A model generated the notes under the pieces. The model was not told the DNA's origin. It did no database searches and saw only the letters and a program-made list of their open reading frames with translations. A DNA stretch of 64,000 nt from a virus, in the IMG/VR virus record IMGVR_UViG_3300025634_000001, positions 1 through 64,000 of that record. One strand, given 5' to 3'. Positions 10,531 through 15,620 of this stretch are shown one piece after another. Position 1 is the first letter of the stretch. The number at the start of each line of letters is the position of its first letter. A program made the translations under genes and the position numbers.

Positions 10531-11367
10531 ATGGAACAGATTGTCATGTGCTTCGATGAGCCGGAGCGCTGGCTCCCGATCGCCGGCTACGAGGGCATGT
10601 ATGAGGTCTCGGACCTCGGTCGCGTGCGCAGTCTTCCGCGATTTCATGCCGGCGGCAGGGTGCTTAAGCCTAGTTATTGCGGACCCGTTGCCAGCGTCGG
10701 CCTGCGTCGTGACGGCAGGAGCCGGACCTTCAGTATTCATGGCCTGGTCGCTAGGGCTTTTCTTGGTCCGTGCCCCGAAGGCATGGAGGTCTGCCACGGG
10801 CCGGCAGGCAGGCGCGACAACAGGCTGGTCAATCTGTCTTACGGAACGAAGCTGAAGAACAACGGCGAGGACAAGCGCCGCGACGGGACGGCGCCTATCG
10901 GGATCCGTAACCCCAACGCACGCCTGACCGACGAGATCGTCCGCGAATGCCGCAGGCGGGTGGCGGTCGGCGAATCCTGTGCCGCGCTCGCCCGCGAGTT
11001 CGGCGTTGAATACACGTCCATGCAGAATGCAGTGGCCGGTGACGCCTGGCGGCATGTCACCACGCCTCAGGCAGCTTCCCCCGGCCCGCAGTCGGCGGGA
11101 CGCCGCAAGGGAAGGCCGCGCGTGAGGCCGATTCCCGGGCACCCTGAGGCGTTTGACCCAGAGGCGGCAAAGAGGCCGCGCGTGGCGCCCCCAGGGCAAC
11201 AGGTAGTCACGGTCCGCTGGGATGCGCACCTACTGCAGGCGGCCCGGATGCACGCCGCGAGCAGGGGCCTGACATTCAGCGACGTGGTGAGGCTCGCGGT
11301 CGTCAACTACCTGGAAGAGAACTCCGACGGGGTGCCGATGCCCGGCTCCTCGCAGCTAAGCGCTTGA
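10531..11367 (+). CDS. NUMOD4-HNH homing endonuclease with a C-terminal ribbon-helix-helix-like extension
   Basis: ERWLPIAGYEGMYEVSDLGRVRS (NUMOD4), HGLVARAFLG..PEGMEVCH..N.L.NL (HNH), VVTVRWDA...GLTFSDVVRLAV (RHH). Confidence 0.85.
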   Translation: MEQIVMCFDEPERWLPIAGYEGMYEVSDLGRVRSLPRFHAGGRVLKPSYCGPVASVGLRRDGRSRTFSIHGLVARAFLGPCPEGMEVCHGPAGRRDNRLVNLSYGTKLKNNGEDKRRDGTAPIGIRNPNARLTDEIVRECRRRVAVGESCAALAREFGVEYTSMQNAVAGDAWRHVTTPQAASPGPQSAGRRKGRPRVRPIPGHPEAFDPEAAKRPRVAPPGQQVVTVRWDAHLLQAARMHAASRGLTFSDVVRLAVVNYLEENSDGVPMPGSSQLSA

Positions 11368-12154
11368 TCCCGACCCCGCCGAGCATCATCGCGTCCCTGG
11401 TCACCCCGGACGCCGCCATCGGCCACGAGTGCACGTTCATCACCCGCTCCGAGACCAGCTCGAGCCCGGCGGCAGTGAAGAAGGACGCGACGGCGGCCCG
11501 GTCGTGGTTGCGCAGCTTCGCCGCCGTGTAGCAGCGCGTTATCCTCGCGGCCATCTCGGGCTCCGCGTACCAGACGGTCGAGATCACCGCGCAGGACCCC
11601 GGCGCCAGCCGGGCCGTCAGCCGGGCCGTGACATCCGCGGCCTGGCCGGCGTCCATGAAGTGCAGGATGGCCCCCAGGACGGCGCACACGGGCTCCCTGA
11701 GGTCGATGGCCTCCAGCAGTGCGGGATCGGCGAGGATCGCCTCAGGTTCCCTCACGTCCCCGGCGAGGACCGTCACGCCCGGGTCCCCGGCTGCGGCGGC
11801 CCCGGCGTGGCAGACGACCAGCGGGTCGATGTCGACGCACGCCACCCGGGCGGGCGGGTCGTATGCCCTGGCCGTGGCGGTGACAGATGCGGGCGACGGG
11901 AGCCCGCAGCCGATGTCGAGTACCTGCCGTATCCCGCCTGCCAGCGCCCAGGTCGCGGCCCGGTTCTGGAAACCGCGGTTGTCCGCGATGAGGCGGCGCA
12001 GGCCGGGGTAGCCTTCCCGCGGGTCGGTTATCCGCTCGGCTAGCTGCCGGTCGGCGTCATGCCAGTCGCATCCGCCTGCCAGGAAGTCGTAAACCCTGGC
12101 GATGCTGGGCGCTGTTGAGCCGGTCAGGGTGTGAGGCCCAGGCACCGGGCACAT
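11303..12154 (-). CDS. actinobacterial SAM-dependent methyltransferase (Methyltransf_19 type)
   Basis: PSIARVYDFLAGG, IRQVLDIGCGLP, VDIDPLV, ILHF, LAPGS. Confidence 0.85.
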   Translation of the reverse strand: MCPVPGPHTLTGSTAPSIARVYDFLAGGCDWHDADRQLAERITDPREGYPGLRRLIADNRGFQNRAATWALAGGIRQVLDIGCGLPSPASVTATARAYDPPARVACVDIDPLVVCHAGAAAAGDPGVTVLAGDVREPEAILADPALLEAIDLREPVCAVLGAILHFMDAGQAADVTARLTARLAPGSCAVISTVWYAEPEMAARITRCYTAAKLRNHDRAAVASFFTAAGLELVSERVMNVHSWPMAASGVTRDAMMLGGVGIKRLAARSRASAPRRSSLPGS

Positions 12155-12647: not shown

Positions 12648-12795
12648 GGTGCGTTCCCTCCCCGGCGGACTCCCCAGGCCGCCCTTTCGTGTGCCCCGCG
12701 GATTTCACTGGGTGAAAACCCGAGCAATTGCCACGGTATGTGGTGAAGGCGTCACGGGGGGGCTTGCATACAGTATTCAATCCTGCGGCGGACCG

Positions 12796-12811
12796 GTGAC
12801 AGAACTGTCAC
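12796..12811. promoter_or_regulatory. palindromic operator candidate
   Basis: GTGACAG-AA-CTGTCAC in the divergent intergenic region upstream of the GntR gene. Confidence 0.5.
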
Positions 12812-12944
12812 GTTCGCTCACCTGCTGGAATGCCGGAACTGGACACAAGTGATTTTCGCGGCCAGGACGCGCCCGGACGCGGTGGGTCACACTGAGACGC
12901 GTCCGGTATGTCCGGGTCGTGCCCCGGCGTCCTACGTTGCATTC

Positions 12945-13202
12945 ATGGCCCGCGTACCGGAATGGGAACCCCAGGACTCACCGGCGTACGTTTACGAACA
13001 ACTGGCCGCGCACCTGCAGGCCCGGATAGCCGCGGGCGAGTTCGCCCCCGGCGCGCGCCTGCCCAATGAGCGGGAGCTGCGAAGCGAGTACGCCGTGTCG
13101 TTCGGGACCGTCAGGAGCGCCATGCGGCTGCTGCAGGAACGCAGGCTGGTGGTCGTGCGGCCATCGAAGGGCGTGTTCGTGGCATTCGGGGCGCGGGAGT
13201 AG
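12945..13202 (+). CDS. stand-alone GntR-family winged-helix regulator
   Basis: YEQLAAHLQARIAAGEFAPGARLPNERELRSEYAVSFGTVRSAM...KGVFV; no effector domain; TACGTT-N6-ATG leaderless start. Confidence 0.9.
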   Translation: MARVPEWEPQDSPAYVYEQLAAHLQARIAAGEFAPGARLPNERELRSEYAVSFGTVRSAMRLLQERRLVVVRPSKGVFVAFGARE

Positions 13203-13205
13203 CGA

Positions 13206-13430
13206 TCAGGTCAGGGCCTTGAGCCCCGCCGTGAACCGTGCCCAAGCCTTGGCGTCGACCACCAGCACCGGGGAGCGCTCGAGCTTGCTGTCCCGGACGA
13301 GGACGACCGCCTCCCCGTTGCCGATCTCGACGCACGCACCGCCCTCGCAGCGGGAGGACACCCGCCATGCCGCCACCTCCGCGCAGTTGCCGTTGGCCTT
13401 GCTGCGGGAGCTCTTACGCCAGCCGTTCAT
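13206..13430 (-). CDS. DUF397 protein with a duplicated N-terminal motif
   Basis: WRKSSRS..NGNCAEVA, WRVSSRC.GGACVEI, VRDSK, AWARF; GGGAGG RBS. Confidence 0.9.
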   Translation of the reverse strand: MNGWRKSSRSKANGNCAEVAAWRVSSRCEGGACVEIGNGEAVVLVRDSKLERSPVLVVDAKAWARFTAGLKALT

Positions 13431-13514
13431 GGTGCCTCCCTCTGTCCCGGACGTGCAGCAGGGCCGGGTGTCTTCAGGTCAGGTTTCCCCGTCCAGCGCA
13501 CACCGGCCCTGTGC

Positions 13515-13553
13515 GGGATAGCCTATCGCGGCGGGCGGCGGCTACCCTTTCTT
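13515..13553. terminator. hairpin after the peptide gene
   Basis: GGGATAGCC...GGCTACCC followed by TTTCTT. Confidence 0.5.
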
Positions 13554-13563
13554 GCCGCGCCGC

Positions 13564-13686
13564 TTACTCGACGTGGTGGGTGGCGGGAGCCAATGCGACC
13601 GACCCGCCGGTTACGGCGGCGGTGACGGCCCCCATGCCTGCCAGGGCGGTGACGGCGATGAAGGCGGCTGCGATCCTCTTGCGCAT
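13564..13686 (-). CDS. 40-aa secreted pre-peptide (candidate signalling peptide)
   Basis: MRKRIAAAFIAVTALAGMGAVTAAVTGGSVALAPATHHVE*; AAAAGGAG RBS 6 nt upstream; basic n-region, hydrophobic h-region, short polar tail; too short for the ORF track. Confidence 0.8.
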   Translation of the reverse strand: MRKRIAAAFIAVTALAGMGAVTAAVTGGSVALAPATHHVE

Positions 13687-13813
13687 AGTGCGCTCCTTTT
13701 CCCGGTGTGGCGCTCTGTCACGGACGTTAACACAAGAGATCGCATGAAGTCACTACCTGATTACACATTGGCGGGTCTAGCACTTTTGGTGACGGCATGC
13801 GTACAATCTCCGC

Positions 13814-14344
13814 ATGCCTGGTTTGCTACAGAACGTACAGATTCACTCACAGAGCGTAGGCGAAGTGCTCGCCGCGATCCTCGCCGCCAGCGCCCGCCCC
13901 GCCACGGAAGTCCTCGAGCGCCTCTCCGGGCAGACCCTCGGCATCAAGGTCGTCGCGTCCGGTGAACGGCCCCTCGACATCACCGAGCAGAACCGGCTCG
14001 ACGCTGAGGGCATCGTCGCCTGCCGCTACCGCACCGGCCTGCTCAGCACCAGGGACGGCACGGTAGCCGCCGGCGTCTTCCTGCTGTGGCTCCCGGCCCG
14101 TCTCCCGTTCGCTGCCTGCCGGGAACTGGACGAGGGCGCTAAGCCCGCAGGGAAGATCCTGGGGCCGTACGGGATGCGCCGCGCGGACCGCAGGGCACTG
14201 GCCACCGACGGCATCGAGGACATCACCGGGGCTGACGCCGTAGCGAGGTCCAGCGCGGTCCTGATGGTCGGCGGGGTGGCGGTCGGGATAGCGGAGGAGA
14301 ACGTGACCCGCGTGTTCGCTGAGGCCTTGGCGGGGGGATGCTGA
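13814..14344 (+). CDS. chorismate-lyase / UTRA-fold protein (DUF98/Rv2949c-like)
   Basis: ATEVLERLSG, R..LL, LPARLP...L.EG.KPAGKIL pattern; TACAAT-N6-ATG leaderless start. Confidence 0.65.
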   Translation: MPGLLQNVQIHSQSVGEVLAAILAASARPATEVLERLSGQTLGIKVVASGERPLDITEQNRLDAEGIVACRYRTGLLSTRDGTVAAGVFLLWLPARLPFAACRELDEGAKPAGKILGPYGMRRADRRALATDGIEDITGADAVARSSAVLMVGGVAVGIAEENVTRVFAEALAGGC

Positions 14345-14615
14345 CGGCATGCTGATGCAGTGGGTTGAGGATCCGGCGGTCCTGGCGGTCCTGTCGCGAG
14401 CCCGGGAACCCTGCCCGTGCAGATGGTGTACGGCTACCACCACGTCCCGATGGTCCTGGCTTCGCAGACGGAAGGCGCAGCCGCTGTAGGCTAGCCTCGG
14501 TTCTTGCGGCTGAGGCCGCGCGATCTAATTCGGCCCGTATCCGAATGCCGGGGGAAACGCCTGGCATCCTCGCCTCGTGCGAGGTGCGGGCCGGGCGCCC
14601 CATCTCGGTGCCACG

Positions 14616-15010: not shown

Positions 15011-15115
15011 TTACCGTTCAGTGGGGTACTTCGGGTGACGGCGGGCCACCAGGGCAGTCACCGCGATCACGACGGCCAGCAGGGCGAGCCACAGCCAGTC
15101 CAGGCCCGGGATCAC
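15011..15115 (-). CDS. 34-aa single-TM peptide
   Basis: MIPGLDWLWLALLAVVIAVTALVARRHPKYPTER*; GTGA overlap with the upstream gene. Confidence 0.55.
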   Translation of the reverse strand: MIPGLDWLWLALLAVVIAVTALVARRHPKYPTER

Positions 15116-15450
15116 CGCCAACGGTTAGCCTCCCTCGCTGCCGCCCTGGCTTCCCTGCCGCGGCTGGCCTCGGTCCTGATGTGCTCGGCTCCCCACCGGC
15201 CGGCTCCCCAGCGGACAATCCGGCCTCCCTGGCAGCCCGGACATTTACGATGAACCCACGTGAAGACGGCGCCCCTGTGCTCGCCTGTGCCGTTACAGCT
15301 GCCGTGCCTCATCCGCGGATGGACGCGCAGCGACAGGAAGTAGGCGATGAGCAGGCCGATCGCGGCGAGGATCAGGCCGAGGATGCGCCCCGCTATGAAC
15401 CCGAAGGCCAGGATGGCGGCGAGGATGAACGGGAAGTGGTTCTTCTGCAC
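15112..15450 (-). CDS. membrane protein with a DnaJ-like zinc-finger segment
   Basis: N-terminal TM, HGSCNGTG...CPGCQGG; TACCGT-N6-GTG. Confidence 0.65.
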   Translation of the reverse strand: MQKNHFPFILAAILAFGFIAGRILGLILAAIGLLIAYFLSLRVHPRMRHGSCNGTGEHRGAVFTWVHRKCPGCQGGRIVRWGAGRWGAEHIRTEASRGREARAAAREANRWR

Positions 15451-15482
15451 ACTCGCACGGTAACCGCGAGTGGCGGGCAGGT

Positions 15483-15620
15483 CTAGGGGGCGCCGCAGGT
15501 GACCAGCGCCGGGTCCAGGGTGATCCGGTCGGTGCTCGGCACCTCGAACGGGGTCAATCCGCAGCAGGGCATCACGCCGCCCTCTGGCGGGCACTGATGG
15601 GTGGTCTCGGTCACGGTCAC
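15483..15620 (-). CDS. small Cys-rich hypothetical protein
   Basis: HQCPPEGGVMPCCGLTPFE..TDRITLDPALVTC. Confidence 0.55.
   Translation of the reverse strand: MTVTETTHQCPPEGGVMPCCGLTPFEVPSTDRITLDPALVTCGAP

What the first reader, a model, noticed from the sequence alone, without database searches (positions are those of the whole stretch)
12945..14344. Candidate phage peptide-communication system: 40-aa secreted peptide, divergent UTRA/chorismate-lyase-fold protein, stand-alone GntR wHTH and DUF397
Seen: an ORF missing from the track (13564-13686, minus strand) has a strong AAGGAG RBS and encodes MRKRIAAAFIAVTALAGMGAVTAAVTGGSVALA-PATHHVE. It is essentially a Sec signal peptide, a short pro-region and a polar 5-8-residue tail, with no room for a folded domain. 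It is followed by a hairpin and shares a 127-bp AT-rich divergent promoter region with a chorismate-lyase/UTRA-fold gene. A GntR winged helix without an effector domain lies about 360 bp away, and the locus is about 3 kb from the Cro/repressor switch. Known: Phr/AimP (arbitrium) precursors have this architecture, with the mature signal at the C-terminus, but they use RRNPP/TPR receptors, and none is visible here. HutC-type GntR regulators are wHTH plus a ligand-binding UTRA domain. Inference: an exported, processed peptide (for example ATHHVE or PATHHVE) is re-imported and sensed by the UTRA-fold protein, acting with the separate wHTH, to tune lysis/lysogeny or conjugation by population density.
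Basis: partly seen in the sequence, partly recalled or inferred. Interest (0 to 1): 0.9.

Follow-up and report, generated by a model that had tools for sequence, protein, structure and literature searches.

The report
Phage exported-peptide and chorismate-lyase-fold gene pair
A temperate soil actinophage carries a conserved, undescribed gene pair, a small exported peptide with a fast-changing five-residue aromatic tail next to a cytoplasmic ligand-binding-fold protein, which looks like a peptide signalling module of a kind not known in these phages, though nobody has shown what it does.

Summary
The 40-aa ORF (13564-13686, minus) is a real gene. It has an AAGGAG ribosome site and coding-type GC3, and it belongs to a family of at least 25 precursors. 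Each has a signal-peptide-like N-terminus, an Ala/Ser/Pro linker and one or two copies of a C-terminal unit [A/S/T]P-x-T-aromatic-aromatic-[Y/H/R]-[G/A].

In all 9 related loci outside one derived clade that had enough upstream DNA, this peptide gene lies next to a homolog of the 176-aa protein. That protein folds as chorismate lyase/UTRA (Z 16 to DUF98, about 13 to UTRA domains and UbiC).

There are 21 distinct cores among the 25 precursors. All 7 two-copy precursors carry the same core twice, one of them despite four synonymous differences.

The host genome is a 105.7-kb temperate tailed actinophage from peat.

I read it as a peptide signalling cassette, arbitrium-like in logic and not in parts (confidence about 0.4). 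The receptor role of the 176-aa protein is the weak step: its invariant Arg/Glu residues suggest one conserved anionic ligand, and the GntR helix and DUF397 are frequent neighbours but not constant ones. A derived clade has an XRE-DUF5753 gene in place of the peptide.

The scan noted this stretch once before, as a 'split HutC'.

The parts
12945..13202 (+). Stand-alone GntR-type winged helix (85 aa; the ORF could start at 12849), with no effector domain
   Evidence: Pfam GntR E 7.5e-20, residues 17-79. NCBIfam matches only the N-terminal wHTH of HutC, PhnF and MocR-type regulators. Homologs lie near the 176-aa gene in L001, L008, L009 and L030.
13206..13430 (-). DUF397 (BldB-like) small protein, downstream of the peptide gene on the same strand
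   Evidence: Pfam DUF397 E 3e-21. It is the only DUF397 in the phage, and the phage has no DUF5753 partner. The same position after the peptide gene is seen in L001, L018 and L030.
13530..13563 (-). GC-rich hairpin directly after the peptide stop codon
   Evidence: Seen in the RNA fold of 13431-13575. There is no T-run and the region's z-score is only -1.5, so function as a terminator or attenuator is only inferred.
13564..13686 (-). 40-aa exported pro-peptide: signal-peptide-like N-terminus, linker, and a C-terminal A-P-A-T-H-H-V-E unit
   Evidence: RBS and GC3. Member of a 25-sequence family. It is the only match in the 105.7-kb genome to the motif-plus-hydrophobic scan. Other peat samples carry a Leu32Ser variant that brings it closer to the family consensus.
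13693..13698 (-). AAGGAG ribosome-binding site of the peptide gene
   Evidence: Read directly from the sequence. GGAG-type sites stand before the peptide ATG in the related loci too.
13717..13733 (-). Conserved element upstream of the peptide gene (contains GTGTTAAC, with a TAnnnT-type -10 candidate)
   Evidence: GTGTTA is shared by 4 of 9 regulatory regions against a background of 0.017 per window. It aligns by eye with L006 and L009. Promoter function is inferred.
13775..13807 (+). Conserved promoter of the 176-aa gene: a GTCTAG/TCTTGA box at the -35 position, about 18 nt of spacer, then TACAAT ending 6 nt before the ATG (a leaderless mRNA is predicted)
   Evidence: The same layout stands before the start codon in WIN, L001, L011, L017, L018, L019, L021, L022 and L026. 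GTCTAG occurs in 6 of 9 regions against a background of 0.064.
13814..14344 (+). 176-aa cytoplasmic protein of the chorismate-lyase/UTRA superfamily, in an uncharacterised stand-alone branch
   Evidence: No Pfam, PHROG or NCBIfam hit. AF2 pLDDT 90.6. VIA Z 16.3 to AF1396 (DUF98), 13.6 to PhnF, 13.0 to UbiC. Profile against PDB: 2nwi E 0.0047. 62 close homologs and 272 clusters at E<=1e-3.

Best explanation
The core of the locus is a conserved two-gene cassette of temperate soil actinophages.

Gene 1 encodes a 36-50-aa pre-pro-peptide. It is exported by a Sec-type signal sequence, inferred from its basic/hydrophobic/A-x-A shape. It ends in one or two copies of a short unit, [A/S/T]P-x-T-aromatic-aromatic-[Y/H/R]-[G/A]. 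The five-residue core differs from phage to phage.

Gene 2 has its own conserved promoter and is predicted to give a leaderless mRNA. It encodes a cytoplasmic chorismate-lyase/UTRA-fold protein.

Most likely reading: the peptide is released outside the cell, trimmed to the core unit, and acts as a diffusible, phage-type-specific signal. That signal feeds back on the phage's early or lysogeny regulators. In this phage those would be the domain-less GntR helix and/or DUF397. The chorismate-lyase-fold protein is the best candidate for the intracellular sensing step, after peptide uptake by a host oligopeptide permease.

Shown here:
- the gene family exists;
- it is linked to gene 2;
- gene 2 has this fold;
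- the cores have diversified, and repeated cores stay matched within a precursor;
- the setting is a temperate phage.

Inferred only:
- export and cleavage;
- diffusion and re-import;
- binding to the 176-aa protein;
- the regulatory output.
For: 1. Linkage. A motif-plus-hydrophobic scan finds exactly one such peptide ORF per locus, always within 127-360 bp of the 176-aa homolog. This holds in WIN, L001, L006, L009, L016, L017, L018, L026/L029 and L030. It finds none elsewhere in those loci or in the 105.7-kb phage.

2. Linkage survives rearrangement. Seven loci are divergent and two are co-directional, and the second neighbour varies: DUF397, a small acidic ORF, or a tRNA. These loci span the deepest splits of the 176-aa tree.

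3. Family and diversification. There are 25 precursors and 21 distinct cores. Precursors average 37% identity while their partner proteins average 59%. L017 and L018 are 46% and 84% respectively.

4. Matching repeats. In 7 of 7 two-copy precursors both cores are identical, although cores of different precursors are 54% alike. In L016 the two copies differ at 4 synonymous sites, so the peptide sequence itself is under selection. This is what one expects if the unit is the released product.

5. Topology variant. L026/L029 has the two units at the N-terminus and a C-terminal anchor followed by Arg residues. That still places the units outside the cell.

6. Gene 2. It has a ligand-binding fold that serves as the effector domain of HutC regulators, and it has no signal peptide.

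7. Setting. The cassette lies among regulators in the early region of a phage with a tyrosine integrase, WhiB, terminase and portal.

8. Neighbours. A DNA-binding partner without a sensor domain recurs nearby: GntR wHTH in 5 loci, or XRE-DUF5753 immediately upstream in the clade that lacks the peptide.
Against: There is no experimental evidence of any kind, and no RNA data set holds this sequence.

The invariant residues of the 176-aa protein (R73, R123, R126, E162, plus near-invariant R52, R61, R96, D125) are kept even in distant relatives that have an extra N-terminal domain. That points to one conserved anionic small ligand or to catalysis, not to recognition of variable, neutral or basic peptides.

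No UTRA or chorismate-lyase-fold protein is known to bind a peptide (my knowledge).

One whole clade of the 176-aa family has no peptide gene in up to 4 kb of flank.

The hydrophobic segment is unusually well conserved for a mere signal peptide. The inverted variant lacks a signal-peptidase site. Both fit a membrane-anchored product as well as a released one.

Adjacency with divergent promoters is also what a regulator and its target gene look like.

All loci are related phages, so part of the synteny is shared ancestry.
Confidence: 0.4

Rival explanations
1. The peptide is an exported or membrane-displayed effector, not a signal. It would act at the cell surface, for example in superinfection exclusion, receptor masking, or engaging a host membrane sensor. 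The chorismate-lyase-fold protein would be a metabolite-sensing co-regulator, acting with the wHTH or XRE proteins on the divergent promoters.
For: The hydrophobic segment is highly conserved. The inverted-topology variant keeps the units outside but has no signal-peptidase site. The divergent regulator/target layout has conserved promoters. The invariant basic pocket residues suggest a fixed small ligand. Fast tail evolution also fits an arms race at the surface.
Against: A-x-A|S cleavage-type sites are conserved in most members. Tandem identical units flanked by Ala-Pro look like a multi-copy pro-peptide. An Ala/Ser/Pro linker of 10-15 residues separates the units from the membrane segment.
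Confidence: 0.3
2. The 176-aa protein is an enzyme of the chorismate-lyase family that makes a small aromatic acid from chorismate or a related compound. The neighbouring peptide is functionally independent, or only co-regulated.
For: The nearest structure is a stand-alone DUF98 protein (Z 16.3), and this is the only significant sequence-profile hit in the PDB. ESM Atlas neighbours are chorismate-lyase-family clusters. Some JGI homologs are named chorismate-pyruvate lyase. R73 aligns with the substrate-binding Arg of E. coli UbiC in a weak hhalign match, and an invariant Glu lies in the last strand, where UbiC has its catalytic Glu (my knowledge of UbiC R76/E155).
Against: Pfam Chor_lyase does not match the gene or the genome. 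No quinone or aromatic-pathway genes are nearby. Every context found is regulatory DNA of mobile elements, including an operon-like position behind XRE-DUF5753. The family was not found in 400 sampled Actinomycetota genomes. The residue equivalences rest on low-confidence alignments.
Confidence: 0.12
3. This is a HutC-type GntR regulator split into a wHTH gene and a UTRA gene that reassemble and sense a small metabolite. The peptide and DUF397 are just genes under its control. This is the scan's other reading, e1-6040159.
For: A GntR wHTH without an effector domain lies within 0.2-2.3 kb of the 176-aa gene in WIN, L001, L008, L009 and L030. UTRA domains match the model at Z 12-13.6.
Against: The two genes are never adjacent and co-directional. 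Their relative position and strand differ in every locus. The GntR gene is missing from L006 and L018 despite several kb of flank. The protein is closer to stand-alone DUF98 than to UTRA. No fused form turned up among 62 near-length homologs, in the longer-protein search, or among 150 representatives, and the longer relatives carry a non-HTH helical extension.
Confidence: 0.1
4. The 40-aa ORF is a chance open frame and not a gene.
For: It is short and Ala-rich in a high-GC genome where spurious ORFs abound.
Against: RBS, GC3 of 0.88, 24 homologs with a conserved motif, and conserved position.
Confidence: 0.01

Closest known systems
Arbitrium (AimP/AimR) and other RRNPP peptide systems (Phr-Rap, PapR-PlcR) of Firmicutes and their phages
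   Same: A short pre-pro-peptide gene with an N-terminal secretion signal and the conserved or variable functional unit at the extreme C-terminus. It sits next to a cytoplasmic protein with no signal peptide, in the regulatory region of a temperate phage. The core diversifies between elements, and some precursors carry multiple copies.
   Different: No TPR/RRNPP receptor is among the neighbours. The adjacent protein has a chorismate-lyase/UTRA fold and no DNA-binding domain. The peptide gene is mostly divergent from its partner, not downstream of it. The hosts are high-GC Actinomycetota, whereas RRNPP systems are described for Firmicutes (abstract of PMC10075063). The core is aromatic/His-rich.
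HutC/FarR subfamily GntR regulators (DasR, NagR/YvoA, PhnF)
   Same: GntR-type wHTH and a chorismate-lyase-fold ligand-binding module. The structural match to their effector domains is Z 12-13.6.
   Different: The two modules are separate, non-adjacent genes. Pfam UTRA does not match. Sequence and structure are nearer stand-alone DUF98. The known ligands of this subfamily are small metabolites, not peptides.
Chorismate pyruvate-lyases (UbiC; Rv2949c-like/DUF98, e.g. AF1396, PDB 2nwi)
   Same: Best structural match (Z 16.3, 152 residues, rmsd 2.7). Similar size, stand-alone. There is a conserved Arg in the central strand and a Glu in the last strand.
   Different: 16% identity. No Pfam match. 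Carried by phages in a regulatory context with no pathway genes. Activity is untested.
XRE-DUF397 pairs of Streptomyces (Scr1/Scr2, WhiJ/BldB-type loci; PMC10364602, PMC6262351, PMC10294661)
   Same: A DUF397 gene is present. In a sister clade the 176-aa gene takes the place directly behind an XRE-DUF5753 gene, where DUF397 normally sits.
   Different: This phage has no XRE-DUF5753 gene. Here DUF397 follows the peptide gene instead.

Membership tests
RRNPP/arbitrium-type peptide communication system | Small pro-peptide with a secretion signal and a C-terminal mature unit | tested here: met
   Basic/hydrophobic/small-residue N-terminus and a conserved C-terminal unit in 25 family members. Judged by sequence rules only, because SignalP was not available.
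RRNPP/arbitrium-type peptide communication system | Adjacent cytoplasmic receptor built of TPR repeats, usually with an HTH | tested here: not met
   The adjacent protein has a chorismate-lyase/UTRA fold. No TPR family was found in the neighbours. The rest of the genome was not scanned for TPR proteins.
RRNPP/arbitrium-type peptide communication system | Peptide binds the receptor and switches its activity | not testable with these tools
   Needs binding and reporter assays.
HutC-subfamily GntR regulator (split form) | GntR winged helix-turn-helix | tested here: met
   Pfam GntR E 7.5e-20.
HutC-subfamily GntR regulator (split form) | UTRA effector domain belonging to the same regulator (fused, or an adjacent co-directional half) | tested here: not met
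   No Pfam UTRA hit. Two opposite-strand genes separate the two genes here, and their arrangement varies in other loci. No fused relatives were found.
Chorismate lyase (UbiC / Rv2949c-like DUF98) | Chorismate-lyase fold | tested here: met
   Z 16.3 to 2nwi and 13.0 to 1fw9. Foldseek probability 1.00.
Chorismate lyase (UbiC / Rv2949c-like DUF98) | Sequence membership (Pfam PF04345 or PF01947) | tested here: inconclusive
   No Pfam hit at E<=0.1, and PF04345 is not found in the genome. However, the family profile reaches 2nwi at E 0.0047, and ESM Atlas neighbours carry these families in 17-38% of members.
Chorismate lyase (UbiC / Rv2949c-like DUF98) | Catalytic/substrate-binding Arg and Glu, and lyase activity | tested here: inconclusive
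   Invariant R73 aligns with the UbiC Arg only in a probability-0.2 hhalign match and with an Arg of AF1396. The equivalence of E162 was not established. Activity cannot be tested here.
XRE-DUF397 regulatory pair | DUF397 gene directly downstream of an XRE-DUF5753 gene | tested here: not met
   DUF397 is present, but the phage has no DUF5753 gene. Its upstream neighbour is the peptide gene.

The most novel reading that the evidence does not exclude
This would be the first peptide-based communication system of actinobacterial phages, unrelated to RRNPP. A Sec-exported, multi-copy-capable pro-peptide yields a five- or six-residue aromatic signal in many phage-specific variants. After uptake, a stand-alone chorismate-lyase/UTRA-fold protein senses it and modulates sensor-less DNA-binding proteins (GntR wHTH, XRE-DUF5753, via DUF397-like partners) to set the lysis-lysogeny decision.
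Probability: 0.22. Interest if true: 0.9.

Novelty: new variant of a known kind. Interest (0 to 1): 0.72.

Why it matters
Phage-to-phage peptide signalling (arbitrium) is known only from Firmicutes phages and always uses TPR-type receptors. A conserved, diversifying exported peptide paired with a different sensor fold in temperate phages of soil Actinomycetota would widen the known reach of viral communication. It would add a new receptor class for peptide signals and give a use to the many sensor-less wHTH, XRE and DUF397 proteins of Streptomyces-like bacteria and their phages.

Even if the signalling reading fails, two things remain new: an undescribed exported-peptide family with matched tandem cores, and an uncharacterised phage-borne branch of the chorismate-lyase superfamily. 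The peptides are short enough to synthesise, so the idea can be tested directly.

Tried and rejected
- **Co-folding.** Complex prediction of the 176-aa protein (alignment A1) with the 40-aa precursor (A5) gave 'no answer' (score 0.00). This is not evidence either way.
- **HutC operator idea.** GTCTAG is enriched in the regulatory regions (6 of 9) and resembles a HutC/DasR half-site. Aligning the upstream regions on the start codons shows that it occupies the -35 position of a conserved promoter (TCTTGA in sister loci, about 18 nt, then TACAAT). I therefore dropped it as an operator.
- **The consensus promoter scan** found nothing in 12700-14600. Its -35 rule is too strict for this promoter.
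- **Fused forms.** None were found in the near-length search, the longer-protein search or among the representatives. The 60-80-residue N-terminal extension of some distant relatives has no Pfam match and does not look like an HTH.
- **More loci.**
  - The peptide alignment found no IMG/VR loci, and the window protein alone found none.
  - The species-representative genome scan gave one locus.
  - 400 sampled Actinomycetota genomes gave none beyond that one.
  - PF01947 was not found in 81 sampled genomes, so no enzyme-family alignment could be built for a better residue comparison.
- **Expression.** No RNA holder is listed for this stretch. Laying peat DNA contigs on it showed only presence and one coding variant.
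- **ESM Atlas** search with the peptide gave scores below 0.85 and nothing usable. Megablast against GenBank phages found no match.
- **RiPP precursor idea** (biarylitide-like Tyr/His cores, from my knowledge). I set it aside because the precursors carry secretion signals and no modifying enzyme is near.
Full report
**What the DNA is.** The window is the first 64 kb of a 105,737-bp IMG/VR virus record with a 99-bp terminal repeat. CheckV rates it complete. GC is 68.6%.

It encodes:
- an ERF recombinase and an exonuclease;
- an HNH/NUMOD4 endonuclease, WhiB and a MerR-type excisionase-like HTH;
- an FtsK-like ATPase;
- a large terminase and a portal;
- a tyrosine integrase at about 89.5 kb.

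It is therefore a temperate tailed phage of a high-GC actinobacterium. The same sequence occurs in several peat metagenomes.

The 40-aa ORF (13564-13686, minus) has AAGGAG 6 nt before its ATG and a GC3 of 0.88. A GC-rich hairpin follows its stop codon, but the fold is not statistically unusual and there is no T-run. The 127-bp spacer to the 176-aa gene is 54% GC. An XRE HTH gene divergent from another gene lies 3.7 kb to the left.

The 176-aa protein has no Pfam, PHROG or NCBIfam match. It does fold with high confidence (pLDDT 90.6) into the chorismate-lyase/UTRA fold:
- VIA Z 16.3 to the stand-alone DUF98 protein AF1396;
- Z 13.6 to 12.2 to the effector domains of PhnF, YvoA/NagR, DasR and HutC;
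- Z 13.0 to E. coli UbiC;
- the next unrelated fold scores Z 5.3 (Foldseek).

A profile of the family reaches AF1396 by sequence at E 0.0047. ESM Atlas neighbours are actinobacterial chorismate-lyase-family clusters.

**The peptide is a family, and it travels with the 176-aa gene.** The 176-aa protein has 62 close homologs, nearly all from soil and peat metagenomes. There are 272 clusters at E<=1e-3 in the 1.8-billion-protein library. It was not found in 400 sampled Actinomycetota genomes, apart from one MAG.

I fetched 27 neighbourhoods and scanned them. A search for the tail motif together with a nearby hydrophobic stretch finds exactly one ORF per locus. It is always next to the 176-aa homolog, and there is nothing else in those loci or in the whole phage.

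The nine distinct loci with a peptide gene are:

| Locus | Orientation to the 176-aa gene | Gap or layout |
|---|---|---|
| WIN (this window) | divergent | 127 bp |
| L001 | divergent | 175 bp |
| L016 | divergent | 199 bp |
| L017 | divergent | 172 bp |
| L018 | divergent | 165 bp |
| L026/L029 | divergent | 150 bp |
| L030 | divergent | 183 bp |
| L006 | co-directional | peptide, small acidic ORF, tRNA, then the 176-aa gene |
| L009 | co-directional | same layout as L006 |

That is every locus outside one derived clade that had enough upstream DNA. L002, L003, L008 and L010 are cut off just where the peptide would be, but they show the same tRNA layout, and L002 and L010 also keep the acidic ORF.

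On the maximum-likelihood tree of the 176-aa proteins, these loci span the deepest splits. The loci without a peptide form a single supported clade (98/96). In that clade an XRE-HTH_31-DUF5753 gene stands directly upstream instead.

*Provenance caveat:* L001 lies in a genome flagged as unpublished (G001). Only the statement that L001 shares the window's exact four-gene layout rests on it. The same peptide and protein are also present in NCBI nr as P0064 and P0012.

**Anatomy and evolution of the peptides.** Searching the protein database with the seven-member alignment gave 23 members at E from 7e-13 to about 6. All show the same plan:
- Met, one to three basic residues, and a 14-16-residue hydrophobic stretch that is well conserved;
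- a small-residue stretch that in most members ends in A-x-A followed by Ser;
- an Ala/Ser/Pro linker;
- one or two copies of [A/S/T]P-x-T-aromatic-aromatic-[Y/H/R]-[G/A] at the very end.

Among 25 precursors there are 21 different five-residue cores. The window's T-H-H-V-E is the most divergent. Peat variants carry Leu32Ser, which restores the common S-A-P lead-in.

Seven precursors have two units. In all seven the two cores are identical, although cores from different two-unit precursors are only 54% alike, and the residue just before the core differs between the two copies each time. In L016 the two copies differ at four synonymous sites. So the identity is kept at the protein level and is not simply the result of a fresh duplication. 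In L001, by contrast, the two copies are nearly identical in DNA.

Precursors diverge much faster than their partner proteins: mean 37% against 59% identity, and 46% against 84% for L017/L018.

L026/L029 has a circularly permuted form. Two units follow the initiator Met directly. A hydrophobic helix and three Arg residues come last, and a good AGGAGG site precedes the ORF. By the positive-inside rule, this still puts the units outside the cell.

**What this supports.** A short exported product is indicated, and its five-residue core is the part under selection. That core differs between related phages but is kept the same within a precursor. This is the signature of multi-copy pro-peptides for diffusible signals, and it matches the logic of Phr and AimP. 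No such system is described for actinophages in the literature I could search.

The persistent adjacency to a cytoplasmic ligand-binding-fold protein, across inversions and changes of the other neighbours, argues for a functional tie.

The 176-aa gene has a conserved promoter with TACAAT ending 6-7 nt before the ATG, so its mRNA is probably leaderless. The peptide gene has its own conserved upstream element. In the window the two promoters sit back to back within 127 bp.

**What it does not support.** The receptor step is open. The invariant positions of the 176-aa family are mostly charged: R73, R123, R126 and E162, with R52, E58, R61, R96 and D125 nearly invariant. They persist in distant relatives that carry an unrelated N-terminal helical extension. 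That pattern fits one conserved anionic small molecule, or catalysis.

R73 lines up with the substrate-binding Arg of UbiC and with an Arg of AF1396, but only in weak alignments. An enzyme therefore cannot be excluded.

A split HutC regulator is not supported as an origin:
- the wHTH gene is near in five loci, but always in a different place and strand;
- it is absent from L006 and L018;
- no fused relatives exist in the searches made.

DUF397 follows the peptide gene in four loci (WIN, L001, L018, L030). It is replaced by a small acidic ORF in L006, L009, L016 and L017. The phage lacks the XRE-DUF5753 partner that DUF397 proteins usually have (PMC10364602). DUF397 may therefore act on host WhiJ-type regulators or on the phage wHTH, which is inference.

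**Verdict.** This is a real, conserved and undescribed phage cassette.

| Reading | Odds |
|---|---|
| Peptide signalling, with the chorismate-lyase-fold protein as candidate sensor | about 0.4 (about 0.22 for the full chain, including the receptor role) |
| Surface-acting peptide under a metabolite-sensing regulator | about 0.3 |
| Enzyme | about 0.12 |
| Split HutC | about 0.1 |

The idea can be tested directly with synthetic peptides and one purified protein.

Noticed in passing
L006:566-638, L009:1491-1564, L010:198-271, L008:91-162, L002:241-315, L003:168-242 (all +); L016:290-361 (-): A conserved tRNA gene lies between the small acidic ORF and the 176-aa gene. It is tRNA-Arg(CCT) in L009 and L010. 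In the other loci ARAGORN reports odd anticodon loops (two-base 'ct' or four-base 'ttcg'). These could be decayed copies, frameshift-suppressor-like tRNAs, or attP-type tRNA mimics.
   Followed up: partly
L006:350-481, L009:1273-1401, L002:24-158, L010:8-145 (+); L016:445-588, L017:782-931 (-): A 42-49-aa acidic ORF family with no Pfam match takes the place of DUF397 directly after the peptide gene. Its first residues (aromatic pairs such as H-Y-W or L-Y-Y) resemble the peptide core.
   Followed up: partly
L026:3611-3784 (-) = L029:3177-3350 (-): A circularly permuted peptide precursor. Two core units lie at the N-terminus, and the hydrophobic anchor plus Arg-Arg-Arg lie at the C-terminus. It is divergent from a 176-aa homolog that is 77% identical to that of L018.
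   Followed up: partly
L004:2954-3874, L011:1455-2285, L022:823-1647 (+): In one clade the 176-aa gene sits immediately behind an XRE HTH_31-DUF5753 gene. That is the slot DUF397 occupies in Streptomyces XRE-DUF397 pairs, which suggests the two small proteins are interchangeable partners of sensor-less regulators.
   Followed up: partly
P0119, P0121, P0123, P0127, P0132, P0153, P0157 (protein ids): A sister family of 223-300 aa carries the same domain behind a 60-80-residue helical N-terminal extension with no Pfam match. The Arg/Glu invariants are kept.
   Followed up: partly
window 13802-13816 and the same place in L001, L011, L017, L018, L019, L021, L022, L026: A -10 hexamer TAC(A/G)AT ends 6-7 nt before the start codon of the 176-aa gene, and there is no ribosome site. 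A leaderless mRNA is predicted. The co-directional loci (L002, L006, L008-L010) have a ribosome site instead.
   Followed up: partly
window 13206-13430 and whole genome: The phage's single DUF397 gene is an orphan: no DUF5753 gene exists in the 105.7-kb genome.
   Followed up: yes
window 15112-15594 (-): A 160-aa protein with a Cys-rich C-terminal half and no Pfam family recurs 0.6-1 kb downstream of the 176-aa gene in L012-L015 (56% identity). It marks shared synteny between the peptide-type and XRE-type phages.
   Followed up: no
window 11303-12154 (-): A SAM-dependent methyltransferase (Pfam Methyltransf_19, E 2e-50) lies 0.8 kb left of the GntR gene. Homologs also lie near the cassette in L006 and L018.
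   Followed up: no
genome ends (G000 1-99 and 105639-105737): The 'direct terminal repeat' is exactly 99 bp. That may be an assembly overlap of a circular or circularly permuted genome rather than true phage ends.
   Followed up: no
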